A stretch of DNA of 64,000 bases from Corallococcus exiguus (GTDB lineage Bacteria; Myxococcota; Myxococcia; Myxococcales; Myxococcaceae). Shown one piece after another: positions 11,715-48,870 of this stretch. How positions within the stretch are numbered: position 1 is the stretch's first letter; each line of letters opens with the position of its first letter. The notes under the pieces are model-generated. The model worked only from the letters and a program-made list of their open reading frames with translations. It searched no databases and was not told the DNA's origin. The stretch lies in the NCBI RefSeq assembly GCF_017302975.1, contig NZ_JAFIMT010000003.1, one strand, 5' to 3'. The position numbers and the translations under genes are program-made.

Positions 11715-11724
11715 CCTCCTGGTT

Positions 11725-27144: not shown

Positions 27145-27176
27145 GATTGCGGTCCTCCAATTTGCTGCGGGGTTTG

Positions 27177-28694: not shown

Positions 28695-28744
28695 GGCAGG
28701 AGGTCTCGTTCAGGAAGGTCGTGGGGAGGGGCTTGCGCCCGGCA

Positions 28745-30868: not shown

Positions 30869-30895
30869 CGGCGGACCGACGGGGGAACGGCGCGC

Positions 30896-31474: not shown

Positions 31475-31486
31475 CGGGGGGGCGCG

Positions 31487-32131: not shown

Positions 32132-32442
32132 AGCCTCAAGCCGCTCCCCAGACTCCGCCCGCGCCCCCCATCGACGCCGCGCCCGCCCTGCTCCAGGAGG
32201 TGCGGCGGCTCATCGCCGCGCGCCTGGGGGTCGGGACCTTCGGCCTGGAACCCATGCTGGACGAGCTGGGCCAGACGCTGGCCCGCCTGATGCCGGGGCC
32301 GGGGGACGCGCGGTTGTCACCGGAGGAGCAGGAGAAGGCGCGCGCGTCGTTCGCGGGCATGGTGGACACGTTGGAGGACGTCCTGGAGGCCCTGCATCGC
32401 TCGGGCCGGGCTGGGCGCGTCCTGGGCTGGGGGGAGCGCTGA
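32128..32442 (+). CDS. Small hypothetical protein, about 104 aa. GTG start in a GTGA overlap with the tssL stop. An alternative ATG lies near 32254.
   Basis: The frame stays open between tssL and tssM. The N-terminus is Pro/Ala-rich. Confidence 0.35.
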   Translation: MKPQAAPQTPPAPPIDAAPALLQEVRRLIAARLGVGTFGLEPMLDELGQTLARLMPGPGDARLSPEEQEKARASFAGMVDTLEDVLEALHRSGRAGRVLGWGER

Positions 32443-32445
32443 ACC

Positions 32446-35400
32446 ATGGATGTCCTCAAGAAACTGACGGCGTTCATTCCGCCGAAGTGGAAGCCGTACG
32501 CGCTGATCCTCCTGGCGCTGCTGGCCCTCTTCGTGCCGCTGTTCCTCGTGTGGCGCGCGAAGCGCAAGAGCGCGCCGGCCGGAGGGGCCGCCGCGCCGGA
32601 GCCCCTGGCGAAGAACCGGCTGCGCAAGGTGCGCGAGAAGTTCCTGGCCGGGCTGCCGCTGCGCCACCGCGTGGCGGTACGGGACCTGCCAGGTGTGGTG
32701 GTGCTGGGCCCCGCGGGCGCGGGCAAGTCGCGGCTCATCGAGCTGGACCTGGACTGGAAGCGGCAGGCGCGGCAGTTCCTGCCCAGCCTCCTCACGGACT
32801 CGCTGCTCCAGATCTACCTGGGCGCGGACGTGGTGGCCCAGGAGGTGTCCCCGCAGCTGCTGGAGGACGAGTCGCCCCAGGCGCGAGAGGCCCTGCGCCG
32901 GCTGTGGAAGGACAGCTTCGGCGGCGGTCAGCAGGCGCTGGCGGTGCTGGTGCTGGACGCGCGCTGGCTTCAGGACACGCCCCCGGACGAGGTGCGCCGC
33001 GCGGCGCAGCTGTTGCGAGGCAAGCTGAACCTGTTGGCGGAGGTCCGCGGAGGCGCGTTCGAGACGCGCGTATGCCTCACCCACCTGGATGAGCGCGAGG
33101 GCTACGCGGACTTCGCGAAGCTCTTGCGCGCGCACCTCGTGCCGCTGCGCTTCCCCCTCCCCCCGCCCGGCCAGGAGCCCAAGCTGGGTTCGCTGCTCAA
33201 GGCGCAGGAGCAGTACCTGGCGCTGGGCCTGACGGCGCTGCCGGTGGAGTCCTTCGAGCGGCTGGAGCGCTTCTATTCGGAAGGTCACGCGCCCTTCGAG
33301 GCGCTGTCGCGCTTCGTGACGGCGCTGATGGAGGGCCAGACGCTGGCGTACGCGCCCCGGCTGGCCACGGTGTCGCTGTCGTCCGCGGAAAAGGACGCGA
33401 GGGACCCGGACGTCCTGTCGGTGTCCGCCGAGGCGAGCACGGCGAAAGCGGTCCACGAGCGCTACATGCACACGCACCTGCGCCGGGCGGTGCTGCTGGG
33501 CCTGGCGTTCGCGCTGCCGCTGTTGGCCGCGTACGGACACTTCGCGTGGAGGCTGGGCCAGGCGCGCACGCGCGTGCAGCGCTTCGAGGACATGGTCCAG
33601 CGCATGCGCGACCAGGGGCAGGAGGTGTCCGGGGTCGCGGTGCAGGACCCGGTGCTCGCGGCGGGCCAGTCCCTGGACTCGCTGTGGAGGGCGATGAACG
33701 CGTGGCCGCTGTTGCGCTACAGCTTCACCGGCGCGCGAGAGGACCTGCGCCAGCGTCTGGCGCGCGGCATCCGCGAGGCCCACATCCGGCCCGCGTTGGA
33801 GAAGTGCCACCGCCAGCCGGACACGTGCCGTCCGGAGCAGGTCGTCTACCTGCTGGCCACGTTGCACGGCTCGCGCGAGGAGCCGCTGGGTCAGCTGGTG
33901 CTGTCCAGCCTGAAGACGCGCCCGACCTGGAGCTTCGTGTCGGAAGGCAGCGAGACGGAGTCCCCGGGCGACGTGGCCGCGCTGGAGGCGGGGCGCACCT
34001 GGGTGACGGCGGTGGGGCTGAACGAGTCCCTGGTGGCCGACTACGTCGTCATGAGCAATCCGCCGTGGTCCGCGCCGGACACCCCCGAGGCCAGCTGGGC
34101 GCGCTGGCCCTTCCCGGAGCCGCTCACGCTGGAGGCGCAGCTGATGCCGTGGCAGGCGCACCTGCGGCGGTTGCAGGACCTGCTGGCGAACCGGGCCGTG
34201 GAGCCGCGCGAACTGGAGCGGCTGGACGCGGAGCTGGAGTCCATGCAGGACGAGCGCAGGCGGCTCCAGGCGCTGCTGGATGACAGCGCGCGCTTCAGCA
34301 GCCTGCCGCGCGCGTTGGAGCTCCTGGCCGCCTCCGAGGCACGCGTGGACACCAGCCGCTTCCGGGGCATCCCCTCCACGCTCAAGACGGTGGCGTGGAT
34401 CAACGACCACCGGGACGCGCTGACGAACGTGCTGCGCATGGAGGAAGAGGCGTACCTGGGCGTGAAGGCGGTGCAGAAGATGACCGTGGCGGAGCTGCTG
34501 GTGCGCGACGGCCTGTGGCTGCCGGGCAACGGCCCCGCGGTGCTCCAGGTGCCGGTGCTCCAGAGCACCTTCGAGTTCCGTCCCAAGGACGGCTCGCGGC
34601 TGCTGCACCAGGCGCTCCTGCGCTACCACGAGAAGACAGGGCGCCTGCCCTTCGGCGTGGCGGAGGGCGAGGAGGCGGTGGCGTCGCGGGGTGGCGCGAC
34701 CCTGGCGGCGGACCGGCTGGAGTTCGACACGCGGCTGCGCCCGCTGGTGGACGAGTTCACCACGCGCATCAAGGGCGCGGGCCTTCCGGTGGAGGAGGTG
34801 TCGCAGCGCCAGGAGCACGTGCGCCGCAAGGTGAACCAGTTCGCGTTCCAGTACCGCAACCGGCTGTTCCAGCGCGTGTCCACCTACCGCTTCCAGGCGG
34901 TGATTCCCGCGCTCCTGTCGGAGGAGCTCTCGCGTCTCACGCAGCCGTCCTCGGAGCTGGTGGACATGCTGCGCGACGTGGCGCAGGGCGTGGCGCTGGA
35001 GCCGTTGGACGGCCCCTTCTACGAGTCGCTGCGCAACGCGGTGGCGCCGTTCAAGCCCATCGCCACGGTGATGAAGCCGGACGAGACCGGCAACTACACG
35101 GCGCTCAATCCGTACCGCGCGCTGGTGGCCCAGATGTCGGACGAGCTGAACGCGGTGCCCCGTCCGGGCGTGGTGCCCGCGGAAGCGACGGCGTCGCTCA
35201 ACGGAGGCCTGGCCACCGGCAGCACGCAGCTGGCGAGCGGAGCCGCGAAGCTGCCGGAGCTGCTGACGCCGCTGGGGCGGCTGGCCTTCGCGATGATGCT
35301 GGAGGACGACACGTCCTACCTGCGCAAGGTGGACGCGTGGCTGGACCAGCAGGGGCTCATCGGAGAGCTGCGGCAGCCCTTCCGTCAGCCGTTCCTCGCG

Positions 35401-36147
35401 GTGCGCGACCTGGGGCAGCGCGAGATTGAGCGGACCCTGGAGCGGCATTGGGACGACGCATCCAGTCGGTTCCTGCGTCCGCTGCTGAACCGCTATCCGT
35501 TCACGCCGGACGCGTCCCAGGAGGTGGATCCGGGAGACCTGGAGGTCCTGCGCAAGCAGGACGGAGCGTTCTGGGACTTCGTGACGCGGGTGCTGGCGCC
35601 CGTGTGCGAGGAGCGAGGCTCGGAGTGGGTGCCGCGAGGCGCGCTCCAGTCCCGGCTGTCGTTGCCGCAGGGGATGTTGCCCACGCTGGGGAGGCTGTCG
35701 CGGCTGGCCCGCATGTTGTGGGACCCGGAGGGAAGGCCCCGGCCCCTGATGCTGCAGGTGATGCCGTTGCCGCTGCCGAAGGCACCCACGCAGGGCAGCT
35801 TCGTGACGCTGGGTTCGCTCAAGTGCGGCAAGACGACGTTCCTCGCGTACAACCAGAGTCCGTCGTGGCAGGAGTTCCCGCTGGCGTGGTGGGACCAGCA
35901 GACGGCGTCGCTGATGCTGGAGGTGCGAGCGCCCGCGGACCAGTCCGTGCAGTACGCGTCGCTGGAGAAGTCACGTTCGGCGTGGAGCTGCTTCCGGCTG
36001 CTGGAGTCCTCGCAGTCCACGGAAGACCCGCAGCACCGCCGTTGGTCGTTGCGAGCGCGAGGTGCCCTGTCCACGGACGGGATGATGGACCTGCGCTTCG
36101 GGCTCAAGGGTGAGCCCTGGATCCCGTTCCGCGAGGTGCCGCGATGA
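32446..36147 (+). CDS. tssM: T6SS membrane-complex protein TssM (IcmF)
   Basis: 1233 aa with N-terminal TM helices and a Walker A motif, GPAGAGKS. Confidence 0.9.
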   Translation: MDVLKKLTAFIPPKWKPYALILLALLALFVPLFLVWRAKRKSAPAGGAAAPEPLAKNRLRKVREKFLAGLPLRHRVAVRDLPGVVVLGPAGAGKSRLIELDLDWKRQARQFLPSLLTDSLLQIYLGADVVAQEVSPQLLEDESPQAREALRRLWKDSFGGGQQALAVLVLDARWLQDTPPDEVRRAAQLLRGKLNLLAEVRGGAFETRVCLTHLDEREGYADFAKLLRAHLVPLRFPLPPPGQEPKLGSLLKAQEQYLALGLTALPVESFERLERFYSEGHAPFEALSRFVTALMEGQTLAYAPRLATVSLSSAEKDARDPDVLSVSAEASTAKAVHERYMHTHLRRAVLLGLAFALPLLAAYGHFAWRLGQARTRVQRFEDMVQRMRDQGQEVSGVAVQDPVLAAGQSLDSLWRAMNAWPLLRYSFTGAREDLRQRLARGIREAHIRPALEKCHRQPDTCRPEQVVYLLATLHGSREEPLGQLVLSSLKTRPTWSFVSEGSETESPGDVAALEAGRTWVTAVGLNESLVADYVVMSNPPWSAPDTPEASWARWPFPEPLTLEAQLMPWQAHLRRLQDLLANRAVEPRELERLDAELESMQDERRRLQALLDDSARFSSLPRALELLAASEARVDTSRFRGIPSTLKTVAWINDHRDALTNVLRMEEEAYLGVKAVQKMTVAELLVRDGLWLPGNGPAVLQVPVLQSTFEFRPKDGSRLLHQALLRYHEKTGRLPFGVAEGEEAVASRGGATLAADRLEFDTRLRPLVDEFTTRIKGAGLPVEEVSQRQEHVRRKVNQFAFQYRNRLFQRVSTYRFQAVIPALLSEELSRLTQPSSELVDMLRDVAQGVALEPLDGPFYESLRNAVAPFKPIATVMKPDETGNYTALNPYRALVAQMSDELNAVPRPGVVPAEATASLNGGLATGSTQLASGAAKLPELLTPLGRLAFAMMLEDDTSYLRKVDAWLDQQGLIGELRQPFRQPFLAVRDLGQREIERTLERHWDDASSRFLRPLLNRYPFTPDASQEVDPGDLEVLRKQDGAFWDFVTRVLAPVCEERGSEWVPRGALQSRLSLPQGMLPTLGRLSRLARMLWDPEGRPRPLMLQVMPLPLPKAPTQGSFVTLGSLKCGKTTFLAYNQSPSWQEFPLAWWDQQTASLMLEVRAPADQSVQYASLEKSRSAWSCFRLLESSQSTEDPQHRRWSLRARGALSTDGMMDLRFGLKGEPWIPFREVPR

Positions 36148-36659
36148 AACCGTGGGCGAGCTGTATCCCGTTGGCGCTGTGTTTCCTGGCCGCGTGCCAG
36201 CCGAGCACGCTGCACCTGAGCGTGAAGGCGCCGTCCGGGACGAACCAGGGTCGGCCGCTGTACATGCTGGTGCGCAAGGTGGACCCGAAGCAGTTCGCCG
36301 TGGAGTCCTACGGCGAGGTTTCCGCGCGCATCTTCCAACCGGACGCGGACGTGCTGCTGTCCGCGCTCATCTATCCGGGAACGCTGCAGCGCCTGAAGGT
36401 GCCGCTGCCGGACGCCGCCGCGCCGGTGGCGGTGTCGTTCCTGTTCACCGCGCCGGACGGCACCTGGCAGCAGTTCGTCAACACGCCCACGCCCGGCTCG
36501 CTGGACATCGAGCTGCTCGAAGGGCGCATCCGCACGGGAACGCAGCCCGCGGCGCCCAAGGAAGGCGACGACGCGGCGAAGCCGCCCGAGCCGCCCGCCG
36601 CCCCGAAGCCTCCACCCTCCTCTTCCGCCAAGGCCCCGGCCCTCCACGCCGAGAACTGA
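36144..36659 (+). CDS. tssJ: Small outer-membrane lipoprotein, probably TssJ, 171 aa
   Basis: Lipobox ...LAACQ. The size is right for TssJ. Its ATG overlaps the tssM stop as ATGA. A Pro-rich tail is present. Confidence 0.55.
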   Translation: MKPWASCIPLALCFLAACQPSTLHLSVKAPSGTNQGRPLYMLVRKVDPKQFAVESYGEVSARIFQPDADVLLSALIYPGTLQRLKVPLPDAAAPVAVSFLFTAPDGTWQQFVNTPTPGSLDIELLEGRIRTGTQPAAPKEGDDAAKPPEPPAAPKPPPSSSAKAPALHAEN

Positions 36660-36668: not shown

Positions 36669-39600
36669 ATGCAACGCATCCTGTTCATCCTGACGGCTGC
36701 ACTGTGCGTCCTGACCGCCTGCGGTCCCGAGGCGGAGAAGGCACCGGAGTCCGGCACCGCCAAGAGCACCGTCGGCGCGGCGCTGAGACCCGAGGATCCC
36801 GCGGCGGCGCTCAGCGTGTCGGACACCCTCGTCAACTTCAACGACCAGGCCCCGTGCCAGACTCTGTCGGCGGAGAAATCCATCAAGCTGTTCAACACCA
36901 GCACCACGGAGCTCACGATTCACCGGGTGAGCGTCACCGGGGGTTTCACCTTCGAGGGCATTTTCGACACGTCGTCCAACAAATGCGACACCAACTGCCC
37001 CGTGCCGAACACGCCACTGAGCAGCACGAACGCAAAGACCTTGAAGATTGGATTCAAGCCGCTTCAGCCCGGGACCTTCCACGGCACGCTGACGCTGCAC
37101 ACGAACGATCCAGCCGCCCCGTCGATCGCCGTGACGCTGGATGGAAAGGCCCTGGGCCCACTGGTCGTCCTCGGCCAGACGTCCGTGGCGTTCGGTGCCC
37201 ATGAATTGGGTTCTTCGACACCGCGCAACGTCACGGTGATGAACCTGGGCAATACGAACTTCACGATGGAGCCTTCCGCCACCGCGCCCTTCAACGTGTC
37301 CGGCGCCACGGTGACCATCCCGCCCGCGAGTTCGACGACGCTCGCGGTGACCTTCACTCCCCTGACCGCTAACGACCTGGGCCCCGTCTCGGGCTCGCTC
37401 TTCCTGACGAGCGCGTCCGCCGTGTGCCCCGCCCCGCCAACCGCCATGCTCACCGGCGAGGGGCTGTCCCCCGCGAAGCTCTATGTGAGCAGCACCGCGC
37501 TGGCCTTCGAGGCCACGCCGGTGAACACCGACAGCGTCACCCAGGAGGTCATCGTCCGGAACGACGGCGACGGACTGCTCTCGGTGACCCAGGTGAAGCT
37601 GCCCGCCAACTCACCGTTCCGCGTCGACACCACGGGCCCCTTCAGCCTCGCGAAGGGCAGCACCCAACGTCTGGGGGTGACGTTCCGCCCGACGGTGACA
37701 GGCACCTGGAACCACACCCTCAGCCTCACCATCGCCGGAACCGACGTGCCCGCCGTCACGCTGGCTGGCGCGACTCCGGCGGTCATTCCCGCGAAGCTCG
37801 TCTTGAGCCGCACGACGATGGTCTTCCCGCAGACGCCGCTGAACACAGACAGCGTCCCCCAGGAGGTCACGCTCCGGAACGAAGGCGGCAGTGCGCTCAA
37901 CGTGACCCAACTGGCGTTGAGCCAGGGCTCCGCCTTCCGGGTGGATACATCGGCCCCCTTCAGCATCGCCCCGGGGGGGACGCAACGCCTGAATGTGACG
38001 TTCCGGCCGGGTGCGTCCGGGGCTGCCTCCGACACCCTGGTCATCAAGAGCAATGTCGCCGATCAGTCCCTGACGCTCTCAGGCACCACGCCATCCAGCC
38101 CGAAGCTCGTCTTGAGCCGCACCGCGATTGCCTTCGCGCAGACGCCCTTCAACACCGACAGCGCTCCCCAGGAGGTCACGGTCAAGAACGGCGGGGACAG
38201 CCTGCTCACGGTGACCGCCCTGACGCTGCCACAGGACTCACCCTTCCGGGTGGATACCTCGGGCCCCTTCAGCCTCGCGCCCGGAGATACCCAGCGCCTG
38301 CAGCTGATCTTCCACCCGACGCCGACGAGCGCCACGACCGGCAAGCTCACCTTCACCAGCAACGACACCGCCGCCCCCGAACTCAATCTCTCCGGCACCA
38401 CGACGCCGGGCAACGCCTGCCTGGGTATCGACCCCCTTTCGTTCGAATTCGCCGAACAGGAGGCAGGAGACGTGGGCAGTGAGCAGAAGAAGGTGACGGT
38501 GACCAACACGGGGTCGGTCCCGCTGACGGTGACGCCCACCGTGACGACGGGGAGCAGCGCCTATTCCGTGAGCCCCAGCACGGCGTTCACCCTGGCGCCA
38601 GGCCCGGCGGGACGTGAGCTCTTCATCACGTTCAACCCCGGCCCCAACGAGAGCGGTGCCGTGAATGGCGTGCTCACCTTCGGCACGTCGCCCACCACCT
38701 CCTGCGTGACCAGCGTTCCCCTCCATGGCACCGCGCGCAAGACCACGCTGGCGGTCAGCACGACCACCCTGGCCTTCGCTGTTTACACCGTCGGCGACCC
38801 GTACCCGACCCAGCAGGTGATCCTCTCGAACAGCACCAACTGGCCCATCAAGGTGTTCCCCGTGTCCCCCGGGGTCCTGACCCCGTTCACGATCTCCGGC
38901 ATTCCGGCGGAGGGCCTGACCGTCGCGAAGAACGGGGGTACCGCCGCGGTGACGGTGGCCTTCGCCGCGACCACCTCGGGTACCTATTCGAAGACGCTCC
39001 AACTCCAGACGGATGCCTCGCAGCCCGTGCCCCCCGTGGCACTCACCGGACAGGCGTTCGCCCCTGAGCTGTTCCTGGTCAACAATCCCCTGACGTTGCC
39101 CAACGTGGCGCCCGGCGGAGAGTCCACGGCCGATGCGACCTTGCGCAACACCGGCAACCAGGCCCTGTTCCTGTCGAAGGTCACCCCGGAAAGCGACGCC
39201 TTGTTCCAGGTCGTCGACTTCCTGCCCCAGACCGTGCAGCCAGGCGGAGAGACCAAGGTGAAGGTGCGCTTCCGTCCCCTGACCAGCACGGGTGACCTGG
39301 AGACGCGGCTGCGCTTCTTCACCACGAATGACCGGCAGCTGCCGCCCGTGCTCGTCGTGAAGGGCAACTCCAATGGTCCCAACGCCATCTTCACCGCGAC
39401 CGAGATCAACTTTGGTTACAAGCAGAACAAGCTCACCCACGCAGACATCAGCCTCAACGTGACCAACAGCAGCACCGCCTCCGAGCCCCTGAAGGTCACC
39501 GACATCCACATCGAGCCGTCCGGCACGGCGTTCTTCGTGGACAACGTCAACAGCTCCGAGCCCGTGCTCGAGAAGGGCGTGAAGCGCCCCCAGCCCTTCC

Positions 39601-42527
39601 GGGTGACCTTCAGTCCCATCATCGAGGACCTGAAGTACGAGGCCCGCCTGGAGATCACCTACCTGGGGACCACGAGCAATCTCAGGACGACGCGCAGCTT
39701 CCCACTCGTGGGGTTTGGCGCGGAGGCCAGATTCACCACGTCGAAGGCGGACTTGATTTTCACCGCCACGCAGCCGGGCAGCTCCAACATGCTTTCCCTG
39801 GACATCATCAACACAGGACATGTGGACGTTGATCTGGCGGAGGTGGCAGCCAACCTCGGGACGTTCAACATCGACGTCCTTGGTTGGCCCAACGCCATCG
39901 TTCCGGTGAATGGCACGCGCCAGATCGATGTCACGTTCGCTCCACAGCTCTCTGGCAACTACTCAGCCAATCTCTCACTCGCCACGAAGCCGCCTGCCAC
40001 GGCGGGCCTGGTCGTCAAGCTGTCCGGCGTTGCCGCCGTGGCACAGCTGCAGATGAACCCGACTCAGCTCGTTTTCAACGAAGTCCCCCGGCAAACCTCC
40101 AGCACCCAGACCGTCGTGCTGAAGAACATCGGCTCCGCCCCACTCGAAATCAAGAATGTGTCGACGGCGATCGGCCCCTTCAAGGCCATGCTGCAGAACA
40201 ACCCGCAGCTCCCCGTTTTCCTCCAGCGGAATGAGTCCGCCCTGCTCGACGTCACCTTCACTCCTGACGTCGCGCAGGATGTGACTGGAACCGTGCAGGT
40301 GCAGAGCAATTCGAGCGACAGCCAGATCCAGACCATCACGGTCTCGGGCCGGGGCACCATCCCCGTGTTGACGCTGCCCGGCGGCGCTCCCGAATTCGCG
40401 CCCCAGGCGCTCAATGTCGAAGGGGAATCAAAGAGGCTGGTGGTGAAGAACATCGGCAAGGCCCCGCTGGTGGTCTATGCCGTGGAGGTCCCGGACCAGT
40501 TCTGCCTGCGCGAGGACTCGCAGCAAACCACGGCTTGCCAATCCTCCCTGAGCCCCAACGTGCCCGGGCCCATCTTCACGGTGGCCCCCGGCCTCGAGCA
40601 TTACGTCTACATCTCGGCAAAGCCCACCCAACTCCTCACCATCGAGCGCAACCTGACCATCTCCAGCAACGCGGAGCCGTCAGGCACCATCGTGAAGCTG
40701 ATTGTGGATGGAGTGGGCGGCGTGAGCCTGTCGCCCTCCAATATCGACTTCGGGCGCGTGAACTTCGGCTCGTTCATGGAAAAGACGGTGACGGTGACCA
40801 ATACGGGCATCACCGACGCGAACATCTCCGTGACGCTCCCTCCGGGGAGTTCGGAGTTCTCCGTGCAGGAAACGCTGCCCAGGGTGCCCGCGAATGGCAG
40901 TGCCACCGTGAAGCTCCGGTTCACCCCCCAGGGAGCGACGGGCGGACTCAGGACGACCAAGGCCTCGGTGCGGGTGGAGGCATCCTCCCAGGCTCCGCTG
41001 GAGCTCGGCCTTCAGGGAATGGCCACGCTGGCAAGGCTCGCGGTGACGCGCAAGGACGCCCAGGCCTTCGACGGGTCCCTTGATTTTGGAGGCGTCCGGG
41101 TGAACACGACCTCGGAGGCCATCGTCCTGAGGCTGACCCATGCACTGCCGTCTGGCTCCGGGGGCGCAGGCACGGAATCGAGCACGCTCAAGGTGGAGGA
41201 CATCTCGCTGAACGCGGCGGATCCGACGTCGTTCATCCTGCAGAAGCCTTCGCTACCGCTGGTGCTGAACGCAGGAAACAGCATGGATGTGTCGGTCCAG
41301 TTCCGCCCGGGCACCCAGCAGCCCTACTCCGCGGAACTGCGCATCACCTCCGAAGACAGCCAGACGAGCACCATGCTCGTGCAGCTGAAGGGCCAGGGCC
41401 GGACGAATCAGCTCAGCCTGTCCACGCCCACCTTGGAGTTTGGCGCACGGGTGGCCGAGTCCTCCGCCTCGGCGATCCGTTCCGTGCGGCTCACCAACGA
41501 ATCGCTCCAGCCGTTGGTGGTGCGCGGGCTGGAAATCATTGGCGCGGCGGAGAACTCCGAGCCCTCGCACTTCAGCCTGGATTCGGCGCCCACGCTCCCC
41601 TTGACGCTGGCGGCCAAGGAATCGAGGGACATCTCCGTCAAGTTCGTCCCCCGTCCGGACGTCACGTCCAAGGCCAATCTCCTGGTGGTGACGAGCGACC
41701 TTGAGTCTCCGAACGCGCAGGTATCGTTGTCAGGCCGGGGGCTCTCCACGGTGTTCCGGGCGCTCAACCGCACGGTGGACTTCGGCACCGTGCGCCAGGC
41801 GGAGCCGGCGACGACCAAGGTGGTGCTCATCAACGACAGCACCCAGGAGCTGGTGGTGATGCCACCCAAGGTGGAGGGGCCCCAGGCCGCGAATTTCGTG
41901 GTGCTGTCTCCCATCCTGGGAGCGGAGGGCCGTGCCCTGCCGCAGGGTGACTCGCTGACGTTGGATTTGAAGTACGACACCACTCAGATTGGCGCGTCGA
42001 GGGCGACGCTGGTCGTGGGCACGAAGGACCAGGAGCGCGCGGCGCTGGTGGCCCTGTCGGGCATCTCGGTGGCCAGCTTCCTGACCATCGAGCCGTTCGA
42101 GTTGGATCTGGGCTGGGTGGACATTGGTGCCACCAGCACGGCGCGCACGGTGACGCTCACGAACCAGTCCGCGTCGCCGGCGAGGTTGAGCGTGGTGGAG
42201 AACACCAACCCGGCGTTCGTGATCGACGCGAGCGCCCTGGACGCGGAGCTGGCGCCGGGAGCCCAGACGACGGTGAGCGTCACCTTCCACGGAGAGGTGG
42301 GAGGCCCCGCGGAGGGAACGTTGAAGCTGCGCCTGCGAGGAGAGACGACGGCGGAGGCCTCGCTCACGCTGAAGGGCCAGGCCCGGACGCTGGGGGGCAC
42401 GGGCGGCGGCTGCGCCTGTGGAACCAGCGGAGATGGGGGCGCGGCGCTGGCCCTGTTGCTCCTGCTGGGCCTGGGGTTGGCGCGCCAGGGACGGCGGGCT
42501 CAGTCCCAGAAGGAGCGGGTGTCATGA
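36669..42527 (+). CDS. Giant cell-surface lipoprotein of 1952 aa. It has about 18 tandem Ig-like (choice-of-anchor-D/ASH-like) repeats and a C-terminal MYXO-CTERM sorting tag.
   Basis: N-terminal lipobox LTAC. Repeat units read F..V.VG....V.L.N.G...L.V..L.......F....P.....G....L.V.F.P. C-terminus is ...GGTGGGCACGTSGDGGAALALLLLLGLGLARQGRRAQ. Confidence 0.85.
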   Translation: MQRILFILTAALCVLTACGPEAEKAPESGTAKSTVGAALRPEDPAAALSVSDTLVNFNDQAPCQTLSAEKSIKLFNTSTTELTIHRVSVTGGFTFEGIFDTSSNKCDTNCPVPNTPLSSTNAKTLKIGFKPLQPGTFHGTLTLHTNDPAAPSIAVTLDGKALGPLVVLGQTSVAFGAHELGSSTPRNVTVMNLGNTNFTMEPSATAPFNVSGATVTIPPASSTTLAVTFTPLTANDLGPVSGSLFLTSASAVCPAPPTAMLTGEGLSPAKLYVSSTALAFEATPVNTDSVTQEVIVRNDGDGLLSVTQVKLPANSPFRVDTTGPFSLAKGSTQRLGVTFRPTVTGTWNHTLSLTIAGTDVPAVTLAGATPAVIPAKLVLSRTTMVFPQTPLNTDSVPQEVTLRNEGGSALNVTQLALSQGSAFRVDTSAPFSIAPGGTQRLNVTFRPGASGAASDTLVIKSNVADQSLTLSGTTPSSPKLVLSRTAIAFAQTPFNTDSAPQEVTVKNGGDSLLTVTALTLPQDSPFRVDTSGPFSLAPGDTQRLQLIFHPTPTSATTGKLTFTSNDTAAPELNLSGTTTPGNACLGIDPLSFEFAEQEAGDVGSEQKKVTVTNTGSVPLTVTPTVTTGSSAYSVSPSTAFTLAPGPAGRELFITFNPGPNESGAVNGVLTFGTSPTTSCVTSVPLHGTARKTTLAVSTTTLAFAVYTVGDPYPTQQVILSNSTNWPIKVFPVSPGVLTPFTISGIPAEGLTVAKNGGTAAVTVAFAATTSGTYSKTLQLQTDASQPVPPVALTGQAFAPELFLVNNPLTLPNVAPGGESTADATLRNTGNQALFLSKVTPESDALFQVVDFLPQTVQPGGETKVKVRFRPLTSTGDLETRLRFFTTNDRQLPPVLVVKGNSNGPNAIFTATEINFGYKQNKLTHADISLNVTNSSTASEPLKVTDIHIEPSGTAFFVDNVNSSEPVLEKGVKRPQPFRVTFSPIIEDLKYEARLEITYLGTTSNLRTTRSFPLVGFGAEARFTTSKADLIFTATQPGSSNMLSLDIINTGHVDVDLAEVAANLGTFNIDVLGWPNAIVPVNGTRQIDVTFAPQLSGNYSANLSLATKPPATAGLVVKLSGVAAVAQLQMNPTQLVFNEVPRQTSSTQTVVLKNIGSAPLEIKNVSTAIGPFKAMLQNNPQLPVFLQRNESALLDVTFTPDVAQDVTGTVQVQSNSSDSQIQTITVSGRGTIPVLTLPGGAPEFAPQALNVEGESKRLVVKNIGKAPLVVYAVEVPDQFCLREDSQQTTACQSSLSPNVPGPIFTVAPGLEHYVYISAKPTQLLTIERNLTISSNAEPSGTIVKLIVDGVGGVSLSPSNIDFGRVNFGSFMEKTVTVTNTGITDANISVTLPPGSSEFSVQETLPRVPANGSATVKLRFTPQGATGGLRTTKASVRVEASSQAPLELGLQGMATLARLAVTRKDAQAFDGSLDFGGVRVNTTSEAIVLRLTHALPSGSGGAGTESSTLKVEDISLNAADPTSFILQKPSLPLVLNAGNSMDVSVQFRPGTQQPYSAELRITSEDSQTSTMLVQLKGQGRTNQLSLSTPTLEFGARVAESSASAIRSVRLTNESLQPLVVRGLEIIGAAENSEPSHFSLDSAPTLPLTLAAKESRDISVKFVPRPDVTSKANLLVVTSDLESPNAQVSLSGRGLSTVFRALNRTVDFGTVRQAEPATTKVVLINDSTQELVVMPPKVEGPQAANFVVLSPILGAEGRALPQGDSLTLDLKYDTTQIGASRATLVVGTKDQERAALVALSGISVASFLTIEPFELDLGWVDIGATSTARTVTLTNQSASPARLSVVENTNPAFVIDASALDAELAPGAQTTVSVTFHGEVGGPAEGTLKLRLRGETTAEASLTLKGQARTLGGTGGGCACGTSGDGGAALALLLLLGLGLARQGRRAQSQKERVS
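37478..38400 (+). repeat. Three near-identical tandem DNA repeats with a period of about 305-315 bp, lying inside the giant surface-protein gene
   Basis: The units begin aagctctatgtgagcagcaccgcg (37478), aagctcgtcttgagccgcacgacg (37794) and aagctcgtcttgagccgcaccgcg (38101). Confidence 0.7.
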
Positions 42528-44284
42528 CCCAGCATGTCGTCAAGGCCGGAGAGTCGCTGTACAGCATCGCGGCGTCCTACCGGATCGCGGACTGGCGCGT
42601 CGTCTACAAAGACCCACGAAACGCCGCACTCCGGAAGACACGGCCCGATCCTGACCACATCAAACCGGGTGACAAGGTCTACATCCCGGAGTCCAACGTG
42701 TTGGCGGCGGCGTCCGGCTCGGGAGCGGCAAAGACAACCGCGTCTCCCTCCAATGCGCTTCGTATTGATTTGGACGCGCTACGTCGACAGACCCAGCACA
42801 TCCGCCAGGACAACACCCGGGTTGCCACGCGGCCCATCGTCATGCCCAAGGCTCCACCCGAGCCATGGGCCGAGGACTTCACGCCCGACCACGAGTTCTA
42901 CGAGTACCTGGCCCATGATTTCTCCTACTTGAACAACCAGGGCGGCGGCACGCAGGGTGGCGAGAGGTTCCTGTATCGCGCTGAAACGCCGGAGCTCTGG
43001 GCCATGCCCGAGCTGAAGTTCCCGGCGACCTATGCCGTCTCGACCAAACGCCCCTACTCCAAGAAGCCGGGCACACAGCCCCTGTACTACACCATCGTCC
43101 AGATGGAGGGCAGCGACCCCCATAACAAGACGCATGGCGTGTTCGCCTACTGGCTGCAGCCATCTCGTGGGAACCATCCCATCATCGCGGTCCGCGGCAC
43201 CGAGTTCGAGAAGGCACCTGATGCCGTCGCGGACATGGACCCCGCGGGGGTAGGCGCCGCTGCCTTCAAGCTGACCCGCGCGCTCTTCCAGACACTGCTG
43301 ACGCGCATTGGCAGGAAGGACATCGTTGTCGTCGGACACAGCCTGGGCGGCGCCATGGCGCAGCGGGTGGCGGTCGACTTCGGGGACTCGGTCCTCCAGG
43401 TGGTGACCTTCAACTCACCCGGCGTCGATAGAAAGACCGCGAACCGCCTCAAGGCGCCCAAGGGTCCGCAGGCGACTCACTATGTCACCCAGGGAGATGT
43501 CGTCTCACTCGCGGGCGAGACGTTGCTTGCAGGCACCGCCACCATCCTGGAGGGGGCCGCCACGGCGGAACTGCGGAGGCTTCTCAAGAATGGCTCTCTG
43601 CGCAAGGTGGATGATCTCCTCACTGACGTGCTGGGCATCCTCTTCATGATCGTCGTCAAGAAGGAGCTGTTCCCAGCGGTGATGAGGACCTCCAACATCA
43701 AGCAACTGCTCGCCGCGGTGGTAATCGCATATGCCGGAGGGAACGCCCAGGCCGCCCAAAGCGTGGGAGCGGCGCTTGGGGCTCTCCACAGCCAGCGATT
43801 GCTGGGCCCCAACGGGACCACCAAACGCACCCGGCTCACGGTAGGCCCCCAGTCATCCGCCCAGTCCAACGACAACATCCAAAGTTCCATCGTCGAGGAG
43901 ATGCGCAAGAAGCGCCTGGGGGTGCTCAACATCCCGGGACTCTACCGGTCGGTGATGAAGCAGATCGACGCGATCATGGGGGCTCCAGTCAAATCCTTCA
44001 TGAAAGAGGTTATGTCTTACGACTCTCCCCTGCCCAAACTCGCTCGCACACTCCTTCCTCCGCTTGTGACGCTGAAGGTCGCACTCGATGAAGTGGGGGG
44101 ACTGCAAGGCCTTGTCATCAAGTCGCTGCATCTTCCTCCTCCGAAGTTCGACGTGAAGATGCTCCAACCGGATCGGCTGACCATGGACCGCGACAACACC
44201 TACGTGGCGACGAGGCTCCCCCTCATCAACCAGGGGAGCCTGGGAAGAAGCTCGGCACAGCGCTCTTCACCAGGAGGTAGGTGA
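42524..44284 (+). CDS. Putative secreted effector with an N-terminal gpX-like LysM domain fused to a class-3 lipase (GHSLGG), Tle2-like, 586 aa
   Basis: The N-terminus is VVKAGESLYSIAASYRIADWRVVYKDPRNAA...IKPGDKVYIP. The lipase region is IVVVGHSLGGAMAQRVA. Its ATG overlaps the giant-protein stop as ATGA. Confidence 0.75.
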   Translation: MTQHVVKAGESLYSIAASYRIADWRVVYKDPRNAALRKTRPDPDHIKPGDKVYIPESNVLAAASGSGAAKTTASPSNALRIDLDALRRQTQHIRQDNTRVATRPIVMPKAPPEPWAEDFTPDHEFYEYLAHDFSYLNNQGGGTQGGERFLYRAETPELWAMPELKFPATYAVSTKRPYSKKPGTQPLYYTIVQMEGSDPHNKTHGVFAYWLQPSRGNHPIIAVRGTEFEKAPDAVADMDPAGVGAAAFKLTRALFQTLLTRIGRKDIVVVGHSLGGAMAQRVAVDFGDSVLQVVTFNSPGVDRKTANRLKAPKGPQATHYVTQGDVVSLAGETLLAGTATILEGAATAELRRLLKNGSLRKVDDLLTDVLGILFMIVVKKELFPAVMRTSNIKQLLAAVVIAYAGGNAQAAQSVGAALGALHSQRLLGPNGTTKRTRLTVGPQSSAQSNDNIQSSIVEEMRKKRLGVLNIPGLYRSVMKQIDAIMGAPVKSFMKEVMSYDSPLPKLARTLLPPLVTLKVALDEVGGLQGLVIKSLHLPPPKFDVKMLQPDRLTMDRDNTYVATRLPLINQGSLGRSSAQRSSPGGR

Positions 44285-45264
44285 TGGACTTCACGGAGCT
44301 CAAGATCGCCAGGGGCAGTGGCAACTTCCATGTGAATCAATTCCGGATCCACTTCAGCGTCCCCGGGCTCCAGGGCGATCCGCAGAAGCAACTCCCGGCG
44401 CTCGTGGCGGAGTTCACCAAGGACTTTCCCAAGTTCTTCAATGGGCTCGGAAAGAACATGCAGGAGAACCAGGCGAGCGTGGCCTGGTCGACCCGGCAGT
44501 TCGAGCGCACCCGGACGCTTCGCTTCCTGCTCGACGTCAAGCTCGCGGCACTGGGCATCAACCTGCCTGACTTCCACAGCGATTGGGTCCACGTCCTCTG
44601 GCAGGATCCCAACAAGGGGTTCGCCGCGCAGACGCTCAAGCGCAACTTCTCTGAGGGCATGGAGAAGCCCCTGTCGATCCTGCCGCTTTCGGCGCTCTCC
44701 GTCTTGATTCAATACAATGCGTACCACTTCCTCGCGGGCCGCCGGTCCTGGGTCTTCGGCCTCTTGCAGCCGGGGATGCCGGGATGGAACGCGGGAAGTC
44801 TCCAGGTCGGCAAGGTCGAAGGCGGCAAGTTCACGCCCTACAGTGGCGGCCCCACCCCCGTCTTCTACCTGGAGTCCTCGGCGGTCGAGCGATCCTCGCT
44901 GCTCCTGTTCAAGCTCATGGAGGTGGATCCCGGGATCTTCGTCGACATCCGCGAGACCATCATCTCCCTCTGGAGCAACCTGCTCGCGAACTACGTCCAC
45001 GCCAAGGGCTTCCGTCTGAACGTAGGCCACCCCAAGACCTACGGCACGGATGACGGTGCCTCCCTGTGGGCAACCCAACCTGAATGGCGGGGTGTGTATC
45101 GCCGGAAGGCGGAATTTGAAACGCCGCGGGAACTCAACGCGAAGAAGTGGGTCCAGTACCTGCTGGATCTCCATCCCGCATTGAAGAGCCAGCCGCTGAC
45201 GGAGACCGCGTTCAAGGGAATGGGCGGTCGTTCCGGAGGGGGTGGCGCCAGCGGCGGGTGGTGA
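44284..45264 (+). CDS. Hypothetical protein of 326 aa, translationally coupled to the lipase. It has no signal peptide.
   Basis: GGAGG lies 6 nt upstream. The 1-nt TGATG overlap suggests a partner protein, immunity protein or adaptor. Confidence 0.55.
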   Translation: MDFTELKIARGSGNFHVNQFRIHFSVPGLQGDPQKQLPALVAEFTKDFPKFFNGLGKNMQENQASVAWSTRQFERTRTLRFLLDVKLAALGINLPDFHSDWVHVLWQDPNKGFAAQTLKRNFSEGMEKPLSILPLSALSVLIQYNAYHFLAGRRSWVFGLLQPGMPGWNAGSLQVGKVEGGKFTPYSGGPTPVFYLESSAVERSSLLLFKLMEVDPGIFVDIRETIISLWSNLLANYVHAKGFRLNVGHPKTYGTDDGASLWATQPEWRGVYRRKAEFETPRELNAKKWVQYLLDLHPALKSQPLTETAFKGMGGRSGGGGASGGW

Positions 45265-45490
45265 GCCATCCGCGCTTCATCCGCGCGGACATTCGATTAC
45301 GAAGGCACTAACTCCGCACGGCAAATTGCAGATCTGTTCATCAAAAAAAGCCCCATGACCGTGCTTGCGGACATTTCAATGTCGCATCAAGTCCACGGAG
45401 CATCTGCCGTCAAATCAAAAAAACACTCACAGCCCTCACCCGCAGCAACTCAAGCCCAACCCACCAACCCCAATACTCGCAGACCACGTC

Positions 45491-48831: not shown

Positions 48832-48870
48832 CCATCCCCCGTAACGAACGCATGGACGTTCGCTCCGCAC

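What the first reader, a model, noticed from the sequence alone, without database searches (positions are those of the whole stretch)
36669..42527. Giant lipoprotein with about 18 Ig-like repeats and a MYXO-CTERM tag, translationally coupled to a lipase effector, directly downstream of tssJ
This 5.9-kb gene encodes a surface-anchored protein. It has an N-terminal lipobox and a C-terminal GGTGGGCACG...LLLLLGLGLARQGRR MYXO-CTERM sorting signal. The body is made of repeated roughly 100-aa beta-sandwich units. Three adjacent units are nearly identical at the DNA level (37478-38400), which suggests recent duplication or recombination. Its stop overlaps the ATG of the LysM-lipase as ATGA. Possible roles are a cell-surface adhesin or receptor that brings target cells into contact for T6SS firing, or a factor in effector handling.
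Basis: partly seen in the sequence, partly recalled or inferred. Interest (0 to 1): 0.6.

Follow-up and report, generated by a model that had tools for sequence, protein, structure and literature searches.

The report
Giant hypervariable T6SS-linked surface lipoprotein
A 1,952-residue lipid-anchored chain of 17 Ig-like domains is encoded directly after the outer-membrane lipoprotein gene of a Francisella-like type VI secretion system in Corallococcus and at least four other myxobacterial genera; 14 of its 17 domains differ sharply between strains, which makes it a good candidate for the part of this weapon that contacts and selects target cells.

Summary
The gene is real (36669-42527, +, 1952 aa; Corallococcus exiguus). 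It has a lipobox (LTAC), 17 contiguous ASH/PapD-type Ig-like units (NCBIfam choice-of-anchor D, 429 bits) and a MYXO-CTERM tag. Its stop overlaps the next ATG (ATGA). One claim fails: the three units at 37478-38400 are only 65-70% identical in DNA, not nearly identical.

New results:
- The "tssJ" is an IglE-type lipoprotein. The cluster is Francisella-like: IglI, IglG and small-VgrG hits, and a sheath closest to IglB.
- A gene with the same architecture follows the IglE-like gene in 11 of 11 loci of one T6SS clade (five named genera plus MAGs), 9-173 nt downstream on the same strand. It is absent from 22 loci of the sister clade.
- The lipase is not a conserved partner.
- Within Corallococcus, repeats R15-R17 and the tag are conserved (75-95%). 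R1-R14 are mosaic (27-98%), with dS up to ten times that of flanking genes. Repeat number ranges from 15 to 21.

Best reading: a surface fibre, possibly 60-75 nm long, co-expressed with the T6SS membrane complex, that mediates or filters target-cell contact. It would be a non-homologous analogue of Vibrio TasL. The function is inferred, not shown. Novelty: new variant of a known kind.

The parts
36144..36659 (+). IglE-type outer-membrane lipoprotein (TssJ equivalent), immediately upstream. Its start overlaps the tssM stop (ATGA).
   Evidence: Pfam IglE_N 104.8 bits. NCBIfam T6SS_IglE 39 bits, below cutoff. Only weak PDB hits, all to TssJ/VasD. Lipobox LAAC.
36669..42527 (+). Giant lipoprotein gene, 1952 aa. 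NCBI annotates it as 'choice-of-anchor D domain-containing protein' of Corallococcus exiguus.
   Evidence: P0001 is 100% identical. Starts 9 nt after the iglE-like stop, with GAGG 7 nt upstream of the ATG.
36669..36722 (+). Type II (lipoprotein) signal peptide with lipobox L-T-A-C; Cys18 followed by Gly.
   Evidence: Sequence. A lipobox (LTAC, LASC or LAAC) is conserved in 12 orthologous loci.
36810..41393 (+). Variable array, repeats R1-R14 (aa 48-1575). Mosaic between alleles.
   Evidence: Self-HMM. Per-repeat identity of 30-97% between Corallococcus alleles. Block-wise switches in a sliding window. Against L001, R1-R14 have dS 0.58-2.0 and dN 0.28-0.72, while flanking genes have dS 0.07-0.37.
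37479..38396 (+). R3-R5 (aa 271-576): the three most similar units. They lie in the R1-R5 block where repeat number varies between strains.
   Evidence: 65-70% DNA and 51-57% protein identity. Gain, loss and duplication of R1-R5-type units in P0004-P0018.
41412..42377 (+). Conserved C-terminal module, repeats R15-R17 (aa 1582-1903).
   Evidence: 75-95% identical in all 18 Corallococcus orthologues. dN/dS 0.14-0.38. The AF2 model shows three all-beta domains, mean pLDDT 70.6. Best Foldseek matches are HYDIN/CFAP/CEP192 ASH arrays.
42402..42497 (+). MYXO-CTERM sorting tag: Cys motif GGGCACG, hydrophobic helix LALLLLLGLGLA, then RQGRR. Nine further residues follow before the stop.
   Evidence: TIGR03901 at 21.4 bits and 28.6 bits on the tail alone. 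Helix in the AF2 model at residues 341-370 of the fragment. Tripartite definition from PMC11980579.
42524..44284 (+). Putative T6SS phospholipase effector with an N-terminal LysM-like segment. Its start overlaps the giant's stop (ATGA). Not a conserved partner of the giant.
   Evidence: Lipase_3 at 4.9e-7 and a partial LysM match. Single GHSLG at residue 271, no signal peptide. Orthologues carry PF26363 Phospholipase-like. Absent next to the giant in other genera.
44281..45264 (+). 327-aa protein of unknown function. No signal peptide. Coupled to the lipase stop (TGATG).
   Evidence: no family hit; sequence and junction.
29615..36147 (+). Upstream genes on the same strand, tightly spaced: tssK, small vgrG, dotU/tssL, a 104-aa ORF, tssM.
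   Evidence: No promoter or terminator signal above the shuffle expectation between 29.3 and 45.3 kb.

Best explanation
The gene encodes a cell-surface, lipid-anchored fibre made of 17 ASH/PapD-type Ig-like domains. It is a conserved accessory component of one clade of Francisella-like T6SS in the Myxococcaceae and Archangiaceae.

Proposed pathway:
1. Export by Sec through a lipoprotein signal peptide, with acylation at Cys18 (inferred from the lipobox).
2. The C-terminal MYXO-CTERM helix holds the protein in the inner membrane. The tag cysteine is lipidated, myxosortase MrtX removes the helix, and the type II secretion system moves the folded protein to the cell surface. This route is established for TraA and inferred here.
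3. The gene is co-transcribed with tssK-vgrG-dotU-tssM-iglE, so the fibre is made together with the T6SS membrane complex.
4. The conserved C-terminal module (R15-R17 plus tag) serves sorting and/or docking near the machine. The hypervariable, recombining R1-R14 array is exposed and binds ligands on neighbouring cells.
5. The fibre thereby promotes or filters the cell-cell contact needed for T6SS delivery. This makes it a 'target recognition factor' that works like Vibrio TasL.

Shown here: the architecture, the conserved synteny and the polymorphism pattern. Inferred: surface exposure, processing and the role in contact.
For: ARCHITECTURE: lipobox, 17 repeats, MYXO-CTERM. Ig-like beta domains followed by a terminal helix in the AF2 model, with ASH-array fold matches.

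OPERON POSITION: 9 nt after the iglE-like stop, with a GAGG ribosome-binding site, and overlapping the next gene. No terminator or promoter signal above chance.

CONSERVED LINKAGE:
- The same architecture follows the IglE-like gene in 11 of 11 clade-A loci: Corallococcus x4, two MAGs, Vitiosangium, Archangium lansingense, A. violaceum, Pyxidicoccus and Cystobacter.
- This holds although TssM has diverged to 65-69% identity, the giant's repeats to 26-46%, and the genes downstream of the giant differ.
- All three Corallococcus orthologues looked up from the giant side are in the same T6SS context.
- Generic choice-of-anchor-D relatives P0019 and P0021 are not near a T6SS.

EXPOSURE-TYPE EVOLUTION:
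- R1-R14 are mosaic, 27-98% identical in 60-aa windows, while flanking T6SS proteins are 84-99% identical.
- Against L001, dS in R1-R14 is 0.58-2.0, compared with 0.07-0.21 for the T6SS genes and lipase.
- dN/dS is 0.35-1.0 in variable repeats, compared with 0.10-0.31 for TssC, TssK, TssM and IglE.
- Repeat number varies from 15 to 21 in Corallococcus. The Cystobacter orthologue has a four-repeat block in three tandem copies.

PRECEDENT: TasL, a large predicted outer-membrane lipoprotein in the V. fischeri T6SS2 cluster, is required for contact-dependent, target-selective killing (PMC9040878). A 2026 review classes it as a T6SS target recognition factor (PMC13584744).
Against: - There are no expression, localisation or phenotype data.
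- Synteny within one bacterial suborder could partly reflect vertical inheritance.
- The sister clade of the same T6SS type (22 loci) lacks the gene, so it is not needed for the machine itself.
- Having lipid-anchor signals at both ends is atypical for the MYXO-CTERM model, which assumes an ordinary signal peptide. The topology is therefore unclear. A hairpin would halve the reach.
- R1, next to the N-terminal anchor, is among the most variable units. There is no simple gradient from proximal-conserved to distal-variable.
- No repeat reaches dN/dS clearly above 1, so relaxed constraint plus recombination could explain the variability without ligand-driven selection.
- Conservation of R15-R17 may reflect only T2SS or myxosortase recognition, not T6SS docking.
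- The MYXO-CTERM score falls below cutoff in Vitiosangium and A. lansingense.
Confidence: 0.45

Rival explanations
1. General-purpose surface adhesin, matrix or coat protein. On this reading it is one of the dozens of MYXO-CTERM proteins in a myxobacterial genome. It sits beside the T6SS genes by inheritance and is read through from the operon, but has no role in secretion.
For: Choice-of-anchor-D arrays are widespread, and most are unrelated to T6SS. The sister T6SS clade works without the gene. Hypervariability and repeat-number change are typical of many surface adhesins. No T6SS-specific domain was found.
Against: The position directly after the iglE-like gene, on the same strand with a 9-173 nt gap, is kept in 11 of 11 loci across five named genera. 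Meanwhile everything downstream of the giant changes. In Corallococcus it lies between structural genes and the effector module and overlaps the next gene.
Confidence: 0.25
2. Homotypic kin-recognition receptor, like TraA. Cells carrying matching variable arrays would recognise each other, and the T6SS and its effector/immunity genes would then act on non-matching neighbours.
For: It shares with TraA the MYXO-CTERM surface anchor and strong within-species polymorphism with mosaic alleles. Proteins labelled C. exiguus are 100, 83, 75 and 66% identical. In M. xanthus the T6SS acts mainly in kin discrimination (PMC10433427).
Against: No PA14-type variable domain and no TraB-like partner gene. Variation is spread over 14 domains rather than one specificity domain. 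TasL, the closest functional precedent, acts heterotypically. Nothing tested here bears on homotypic binding.
Confidence: 0.15
3. Structural extension of the T6SS membrane complex. The protein would be a periplasm-spanning or outer-membrane cap or tether, anchored in the outer membrane by its N-terminal lipid and in the inner membrane by an uncleaved C-terminal helix. It would stabilise the divergent TssM-IglE complex.
For: The gene order tssM-iglE-giant is conserved. The module next to the C-terminal helix is conserved. It carries two membrane-anchor signals. Accessory proteins such as TslA, TsmK and TagV do stabilise non-canonical membrane complexes (PMC13584744).
Against: Seventeen Ig-like domains would be expected to give a contour of about 60-75 nm, well beyond the width of a periplasm (inference from typical domain size). 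Hypervariability with mosaic alleles is unexpected for an internal structural part. The sister clade lacks the gene. In the studied case TraA, MYXO-CTERM directs export to the surface.
Confidence: 0.1
4. Effector-handling factor dedicated to the downstream lipase.
For: ATGA overlap with the lipase gene in the window and in L003.
Against: L001 and L002 have gaps of about 96 nt. The lipase is missing next to the giant in L004, L008, L012, L013, L037 and L038. The giant is Sec-exported, whereas the lipase has no signal peptide, so the two would be in different compartments.
Confidence: 0.03

Closest known systems
TasL (type VI secretion associated lipoprotein) of Vibrio fischeri T6SS2 (PMC9040878)
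   Same: A very large predicted outer-membrane lipoprotein encoded in a T6SS gene cluster. It has repeated beta-sandwich adhesion-type domains and a predicted reach of tens of nm. TasL is shown to mediate target-selective cell-cell contact for T6SS killing. The TasL paper already lists large lipoproteins near T6SS clusters in other bacteria, including MXAN_4798 of M. xanthus.
   Different: No detectable sequence relationship: no Vibrio protein appears among the 93 hits at E <= 1e-20. The repeats are ASH/PapD-like (choice-of-anchor D), not FN3-like. The protein has an added C-terminal MYXO-CTERM tag. It is operonic with the membrane-complex genes, whereas tasL is a separate transcription unit. 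It belongs to a Francisella-like T6SS in Myxococcota. Its function is untested.
TraA, the polymorphic MYXO-CTERM cell-surface receptor of myxobacteria (PMC3820747, PMC11980579)
   Same: MYXO-CTERM anchoring, with myxosortase and T2SS-dependent surface display expected. Strong allelic polymorphism within species. A role in cell-cell recognition is plausible.
   Different: No PA14 variable domain, no TraB partner gene and an unrelated domain type. It has a lipoprotein signal peptide rather than an ordinary one. It is linked to the T6SS, not to outer-membrane exchange.
Extracellular 'antennae' of the Myxococcus xanthus T6SS seen by cryo-tomography (Chang et al. 2017; bioRxiv 10.1101/108233)
   Same: Myxobacterial T6SS. 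The antennae are thin fibres about 60 nm long arising from the outer membrane around the machine, 1-6 per T6SS, of unknown protein identity. They were proposed to be a variable accessory component that confers target specificity. A 17-domain Ig array would be expected to be of similar length (inference from typical domain size).
   Different: The antennae were seen on the canonical M. xanthus T6SS cluster, which is a different subtype. No IglE-like protein labelled M. xanthus appears among the 120 hits listed. The link rests on analogy of size and location only.
VesB and other GlyGly-CTERM/rhombosortase substrates of Vibrio cholerae, and the pullulanase PulA lipoprotein
   Same: T2SS-exported proteins that stay lipid-anchored on the cell surface. 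The Pfam family that best matches the repeats (HYDIN/CFA65/VesB-like Ig) is named in part after the Ig-like domain of VesB. PMC11980579 draws the same parallels for the MYXO-CTERM route.
   Different: Those are enzymes with one anchor each. This protein is a pure Ig array with anchor signals at both ends.
TslA / TagM1 T6SS target-recognition lipoproteins (Acinetobacter, Burkholderia; PMC13584744)
   Same: Accessory lipoproteins encoded in T6SS clusters that tie assembly to cell-cell contact sites.
   Different: Those are small periplasmic proteins acting on TssM. This one is a 190-kDa repeat array with a surface-sorting tag.

Membership tests
MYXO-CTERM sorting-signal proteins (TIGR03901) | HMM score at or above the curated cutoff (20 bits) | tested here: met
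   21.4 bits in the whole protein and 28.6 bits on the tail alone. Orthologue tails: L001 27.7, L008 22.9, L038 20.1 (pass); L012 17.8, L013 15.0, L037 17.5 (below). L037 passes the sibling model TIGR03382. MYXO-CTERM is the top hit for all seven tails.
MYXO-CTERM sorting-signal proteins (TIGR03901) | Tripartite tail: Cys-containing signature, transmembrane helix, Arg-rich cluster at the C-terminus (PMC11980579) | tested here: met
   GGGCACG, then LALLLLLGLGLA, then RQGRR. The AF2 model shows a helix. Nine extra residues follow the Arg cluster.
MYXO-CTERM sorting-signal proteins (TIGR03901) | Host belongs to Myxococcota; N-terminal Sec signal present | tested here: met
   Corallococcus exiguus. 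A signal peptide is present, but of the lipoprotein type, which the published model does not assume.
MYXO-CTERM sorting-signal proteins (TIGR03901) | Cys lipidation, cleavage by myxosortase MrtX and T2SS-dependent surface display | not testable with these tools
   Needs biochemistry. mrtX and the T2SS genes are not in the window.
Choice-of-anchor D domain proteins (NF012200) / ASH-PapD-like Ig arrays | HMM match above cutoff; beta-sandwich fold of the ASH/MSP class | tested here: met
   429 bits against a cutoff of 45, in 15 stretches. Pfam HYDIN_VesB_CFA65-like_Ig 304 bits and ASH 224 bits. The only PDB sequence hit is HYDIN. The AF2 model plus Foldseek gives HYDIN/CFAP/CEP192 at E = 1e-17 to 1e-10.
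Bacterial lipoproteins | Signal peptide ending in a lipobox [LVI][ASTVI][GAS]C | tested here: met
   MQR + hydrophobic stretch + L-T-A-C. Conserved as LTAC, LASC or LAAC in 12 loci. Acylation itself is not testable.
TasL family (T6SS-associated large lipoprotein) | Sequence homology to V. fischeri TasL | tested here: inconclusive
   No TasL sequence was available to compare directly. No Vibrio or Moritella protein appears among the 93 hits at E <= 1e-20. TasL is described as having FN3-like repeats, whereas these are ASH-type.
TasL family (T6SS-associated large lipoprotein) | Large predicted outer-membrane lipoprotein encoded in a T6SS cluster | tested here: met
   1952 aa, lipobox, 9 nt downstream of the iglE-like gene. 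Conserved in 11 of 11 clade-A loci.
TasL family (T6SS-associated large lipoprotein) | Required for cell-cell contact and target-selective T6SS killing | not testable with these tools
   Needs a mutant, plus co-incubation assays in liquid or hydrogel compared with agar.
TraA kin-recognition receptors | PA14-type variable domain, Cys-rich repeats and an adjacent traB (OmpA-domain) partner gene | tested here: not met
   No PA14 hit in Pfam or NCBIfam. The neighbours are T6SS genes and a lipase.
TssJ / IglE outer-membrane lipoprotein (the upstream neighbour) | IglE_N domain, lipobox, gene next to tssM | tested here: met
   PF22361 at 104.8 bits against a cutoff of 26. Lipobox LAAC and an ATGA overlap with tssM. 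The NCBIfam IglE equivalog scores only 39 bits against a cutoff of 75, so it is not a strict IglE equivalog.
Francisella-type T6SS (T6SSii), as context for the cluster | FPI-specific parts (IglE, IglI, IglG, short VgrG, IglC tube), sheath of the IglA/IglB lineage, no ClpV in the cluster | tested here: inconclusive
   For: IglI family at 232 bits against a cutoff of 100. IglG at 49 bits, below cutoff. Short 192-aa VgrG with a weak Francisella TssI hit. TssC is closest to IglB 3j9o (423 bits, against 355 for VipB). No ClpV or Pfam Hcp hit among the ORFs scanned.

Against, or open: TssB, TssC and TssK also pass the canonical equivalogs. The identity of the 216-aa ORF at the iglC position could not be tested, because the AF2 model came out at pLDDT 34 and there is no PDB hit.

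The most novel reading that the evidence does not exclude
The protein is the molecular identity of a T6SS 'antenna'. It would be a tail-fibre-like extracellular filament, perhaps about 60 nm long, that stands around the T6SS outer-membrane exit. It would be anchored by its conserved C-terminal module and would use a hypervariable, recombining Ig array as a strain-specific receptor-binding fibre that decides which neighbours the T6SS engages. That would make it a functional equivalent of phage tail fibres, encoded inside a T6SS operon. It would also suggest a candidate class of protein for the unidentified antennae seen on the M. xanthus T6SS in 2017.
Probability: 0.2. Interest if true: 0.85.

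Novelty: new variant of a known kind. Interest (0 to 1): 0.6.

Why it matters
How a T6SS finds and selects its targets is poorly understood. Few target-recognition accessory factors are known (TasL, TslA/TagM1, TagQRST). The extracellular antennae seen on the myxobacterial T6SS have had no assigned protein since 2017.

This gene offers a concrete, genetically tractable candidate:
- It is conserved in the operon of a whole T6SS clade.
- It carries a surface-sorting tag.
- It has the size expected of such fibres.
- It shows the kind of allelic mosaicism expected of a specificity determinant.

The gene also ties the myxosortase/T2SS surface-display pathway to a T6SS. In addition, it draws attention to a Francisella-like T6SS lineage in soil myxobacteria, whereas the review read here (PMC5924787) lists only Francisella under T6SSii.

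Tried and rejected
- An exact-sequence look-up of the giant protein found no contig on record. I obtained context through orthologues instead.
- Tandem Repeats Finder found no array in the gene, which rules out 'nearly identical' units.
- The effector-chaperone idea was rejected because the lipase is not a conserved neighbour.
- The 216-aa ORF at the iglC position could not be classified. It has no family hit, no PDB hit and an unusable single-sequence AF2 model at pLDDT 34.
- The supplementary table of M. xanthus MYXO-CTERM proteins is held only as an image. I therefore could not measure how common a lipobox is among MYXO-CTERM proteins. The Haft preprint has no relevant text.
- The promoter and terminator scan gave nothing above the shuffle expectation.
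- The rhomboid+TPR gene at 49389-51476 was considered as a possible sorting enzyme. It scores only 37.6 bits against the rhombosortase cutoff of 84, and MYXO-CTERM is processed by a CPBP-type myxosortase, so no link is claimed.
- I searched the sister-clade loci for a substitute surface protein. Only a coiled-coil (apolipoprotein-like) protein and proteins with no family hit turned up.
- I did not find the Chang et al. EMBO Rep paper under its PMC id and used the bioRxiv version.
Full report
OBSERVATION

The ORF at 36669-42527 (+) exists, starts with ATG and encodes 1952 residues. Its third-position GC is 0.88, so it has coding character in a 70% GC genome. It is 100% identical to an NCBI protein of Corallococcus exiguus annotated only as 'choice-of-anchor D domain-containing protein'.

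The N-terminus MQRILFILTAALCVLTAC|G is a lipoprotein signal with lipobox L-T-A-C. The C-terminus GGTGGGCACGTSGDGGAALALLLLLGLGLARQGRR matches TIGR03901 MYXO-CTERM at 21.4 bits in the whole protein (cutoff 20) and at 28.6 bits when the tail is scored alone. It has the three parts that define the tag: a Cys signature, a transmembrane helix and an Arg cluster (PMC11980579).

A profile built from the protein's own repeats finds 17 contiguous units covering residues 48-1903. NCBIfam choice_anch_D scores 429 bits. Pfam HYDIN/VesB-like Ig, ASH, Cep192 and DUF1573 all hit. The only sequence relative in the PDB is HYDIN. An AlphaFold model of R15-R17 plus the tail (mean pLDDT 70.6) shows three all-beta domains, a disordered Cys linker and a terminal helix. 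Its best structural matches are ASH-domain arrays of ciliary proteins and CEP192.

The stop overlaps the next ATG as ATGA. The gene starts 9 nt after the upstream lipoprotein gene, with GAGG in ribosome-binding position.

The three units at 37474-38370 are 65-72% identical in DNA and 51-57% in protein, not nearly identical, and Tandem Repeats Finder sees no array. They are nevertheless the most similar units. Nearly all other unit pairs are 11-35% identical.

CONTEXT

The window holds a complete-looking T6SS cluster from about 19.7 to 45.3 kb:
- Minus strand: tssB, tssC, a 216-aa ORF, an IglI-family gene (232 bits, cutoff 100), a TssG-like gene, a 543-aa ORF and tssF.
- Plus strand: an IglG-like PAAR-type gene at 19661-20149, which lies next to tssF at the far end of the cluster, oriented convergently with it.
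- Plus strand, tightly spaced or overlapping: tssK, a 192-aa VgrG, dotU, a 104-aa ORF, tssM, the IglE-type lipoprotein, the giant, the lipase and a 327-aa ORF.

Its only weak PDB hits are TssJ/VasD. The sheath protein is closer to Francisella IglB (423 bits) than to V. cholerae VipB (355 bits) or the 5urw TssC entry (342 bits). So the system is Francisella-like in several parts, although TssB, TssC and TssK also pass the canonical equivalog models. In the papers I could search, T6SSii is treated as Francisella-specific.

IS THE GIANT GENE TIED TO THE T6SS?

From the giant side: clear orthologues found by sequence are confined to Corallococcus (P0001-P0018, 50-100% identity, 1670-2420 aa). After them the scores drop to generic choice-of-anchor-D proteins. 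The three Corallococcus orthologues I looked up all sit in the same place, after tssM and the iglE-like gene. Two generic relatives, P0019 and P0021, are not near any T6SS gene.

From the T6SS side: an alignment of IglE-like lipoproteins retrieved 33 genome loci, and two more came from look-ups. They fall into two clades.
- Clade A has TssM 65-96% identical to the window. It covers Corallococcus, two Myxococcaceae MAGs, Vitiosangium, Archangium lansingense, A. violaceum, Pyxidicoccus fallax and Cystobacter ferrugineus. All 11 loci with sequence downstream of the iglE-like gene carry a gene of the same architecture: lipobox, 13-22 choice-of-anchor-D units, and a Cys/helix/Arg tail. It lies on the same strand, 9-173 nt after the iglE-like stop, with a GAGG motif upstream.
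- Clade B has TssM 43-56% identical. It covers 22 loci, 15 of them with about 10 kb downstream. None has such a gene. Where I read the ORF lists, genes on the opposite strand follow the iglE-like gene, including a coiled-coil protein in the two loci I scanned.

What lies after the giant differs between genera. I found a lipase plus the 327-aa ORF, the 327-aa ORF alone, a polyketide-cyclase-like protein, an eCIS-core protein, a CBM9/DUF5916 protein and a TonB-dependent receptor. The conserved block therefore ends with the giant. This argues that the giant belongs to the T6SS module and that the lipase does not belong to the giant. The ATGA overlap with the lipase is shared only with L003, and L001 and L002 have gaps of about 96 nt.

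EVOLUTIONARY PATTERN

Within Corallococcus the flanking proteins are 84-99% identical to the window, but the giant is 51-86% identical.

Mapping each repeat of each orthologue onto the window's repeats shows three things:
- R15-R17 and the tag are conserved at 75-95%.
- R1-R14 vary from 30 to 97%.
- All repeat-number changes (15-21 units) lie in the R1-R5 block, including duplication of an R1-R2-R5-R5-type module.

Sixty-residue windows show abrupt switches. For example, P0011 is 80-87% identical over residues 541-900, 27-53% over 901-1560 and 73-95% over 1561-1920. The closest allele also changes along the gene. That is a mosaic of diverged segments.

Nei-Gojobori estimates for window against L001:
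- T6SS genes and the lipase: dS 0.07-0.21.
- The 327-aa ORF: dS 0.37.
- Giant R1-R14: dS 0.58-2.0 and dN 0.28-0.72.
- Giant R16 and R17: dS 0.16 and 0.28.

dN/dS is 0.35-1.0 in the variable repeats, compared with 0.10-0.31 for TssC, TssK, TssM and IglE. The variability is therefore old allelic divergence shuffled by recombination under weak or diversifying constraint, not simply fast drift.

Proteins labelled C. exiguus are 100, 83, 75 and 66% identical. Across genera the repeats are only 26-46% identical, while TssM stays at 65-69%. The Cystobacter orthologue carries a 1296-nt block of four repeats in three tandem copies at 76-90% DNA identity. Some orthologues have a long acidic low-complexity linker after the lipobox.

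MECHANISM

Established knowledge of the MYXO-CTERM route comes from TraA: Sec export, retention in the inner membrane by the tag helix, Cys lipidation, cleavage by myxosortase MrtX and T2SS-dependent display on the cell surface (PMC11980579).

From that, together with the lipobox, I infer a surface-displayed, lipid-anchored fibre. At a typical 3.5-4.5 nm per Ig-like domain, 17 domains would give about 60-75 nm. That figure rests on my general knowledge of domain size, not on a measurement. Its position in the operon implies it is made together with the membrane complex.

The conserved C-terminal module probably serves sorting and/or docking. The variable array is probably exposed and binds ligands. 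The closest functional precedent is TasL of V. fischeri. TasL is a >10-kb lipoprotein gene in the T6SS2 island that is required for target-selective cell-cell contact and for killing in hydrogel and in the host, but not on agar (PMC9040878). It is classed as a target recognition factor (PMC13584744). The TasL paper already notes large lipoproteins near T6SS clusters in other bacteria, including MXAN_4798. The kind is therefore known.

What is new here:
- a non-homologous ASH-type array;
- anchor signals at both ends, including MYXO-CTERM;
- strict operonic placement after the iglE-like gene across a whole T6SS clade;
- the conserved-base, hypervariable-body allele structure;
- the Francisella-like host system.

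I found no paper linking choice-of-anchor-D or MYXO-CTERM proteins to a T6SS.

RIVALS AND CAVEATS

All functional statements are inferences. The rivals are:
- a passenger adhesin;
- a TraA-like homotypic receptor;
- a structural tether of the membrane complex.

The open issues are the two-anchor topology, the absence of the gene from the sister clade, the lack of any repeat with dN/dS clearly above 1, and the marginal tag scores in Vitiosangium and A. lansingense.

NOVEL READING

Cryo-tomography of M. xanthus showed tail-fibre-like extracellular 'antennae' about 60 nm long, 1-6 per T6SS. Their protein identity is unknown, and they were proposed to be a variable accessory specificity factor (bioRxiv 10.1101/108233). 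The giant protein has the expected length, location signal and variability for such a fibre. However, it belongs to a different T6SS subtype from the M. xanthus cluster, so this is an analogy only. I put the probability at about 0.2.

VERDICT

The adhesin or target-contact interpretation is plausible and is now backed by comparative evidence. The effector-handling idea is not supported. Novelty: new variant of a known kind. Interest: 0.6.

Noticed in passing
window 19661-36659 (whole T6SS cluster): The T6SS is Francisella-pathogenicity-island-like. It has an IglI-family protein (24809-25780, minus strand; 232 bits against a cutoff of 100), an IglG-like PAAR-type protein (19661-20149; 49 bits), an IglE_N lipoprotein and a 192-aa VgrG. 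TssC is closest to Francisella IglB (3j9o, 423 bits, against 355 for VipB). No ClpV or Pfam Hcp hit was found among the ORFs scanned. The papers I could search treat T6SSii as Francisella-only. IglE-like homologues are widespread in Myxococcaceae and Archangiaceae and split into two clades.
   Followed up: partly
window 861-13683 (minus strand): A second contractile injection system lies upstream of the T6SS. It includes a phage-type tail sheath (9387-11714), a CIS tube protein (6475-7347) and a GPD baseplate hub (4999-6273). This is probably an eCIS or phage-tail-like element.
   Followed up: no
window 30896-31474: The short VgrG evolves unusually. It is 84-89% identical in protein between Corallococcus strains, with dS of only 0.075-0.15, giving dN/dS 0.6-0.8. 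TssK and TssC give 0.11-0.14. This may reflect diversifying or relaxed selection on the spike.
   Followed up: partly
window 45300-48900: This is a low-GC (0.58-0.59) variable island downstream of the effector module. It holds a LysM-domain protein (45365-46408) and a DUF3304 remnant (46679-47011). At the same position other strains carry Tle1-like phospholipase + DUF3304 pairs and a DDE transposase. It looks like an effector-swapping hotspot.
   Followed up: partly
window 44281-45264: The 327-aa protein after the lipase has no signal peptide and no family hit. It is therefore not a typical periplasmic Tli-type immunity protein. In the MAG locus L008 a 68%-identical homologue directly follows the giant, with no lipase detected.
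   Followed up: partly
window 49389-51476 (minus strand): A 695-aa rhomboid + TPR protein is a conserved neighbour in Corallococcus. It gives only a weak rhombosortase hit (37.6 bits against a cutoff of 84). No link to the MYXO-CTERM tag is claimed.
   Followed up: no
L005, L006, L007, L009, L010 (Corallococcus draft assemblies): Five draft contigs end inside the iglE-like gene or within about 300 nt after it, just before the giant gene. This suggests short-read assemblies break at this locus, so the giant gene is probably under-represented or truncated in draft genomes.
   Followed up: no
L002 9350-15013; L008 10530-16181; L011 4094-7484; L038 11104-11463: Some orthologues carry a long low-complexity tether between the lipobox and the first Ig unit. 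It is about 150 aa and acidic (DAGS-type) in L002 and L008, and shorter in L011. The Cystobacter gene has a 30-nt tandem repeat there.
   Followed up: no
L015-L036 (clade-B loci), e.g. L028 10482-15099: In the sister T6SS clade, the loci whose ORF lists I read have convergent genes after the iglE-like gene. In L028 and L033 these are a 700-810-aa coiled-coil (apolipoprotein-like) protein and a roughly 640-aa protein with no family hit. L028 also has a run of roughly 370-aa paralogous lipoproteins nearby.
   Followed up: partly
L013 16062-19625 (minus strand): In Archangium lansingense an 1187-aa protein with an eCIS core domain (97 bits) lies convergent to the giant gene.
   Followed up: no
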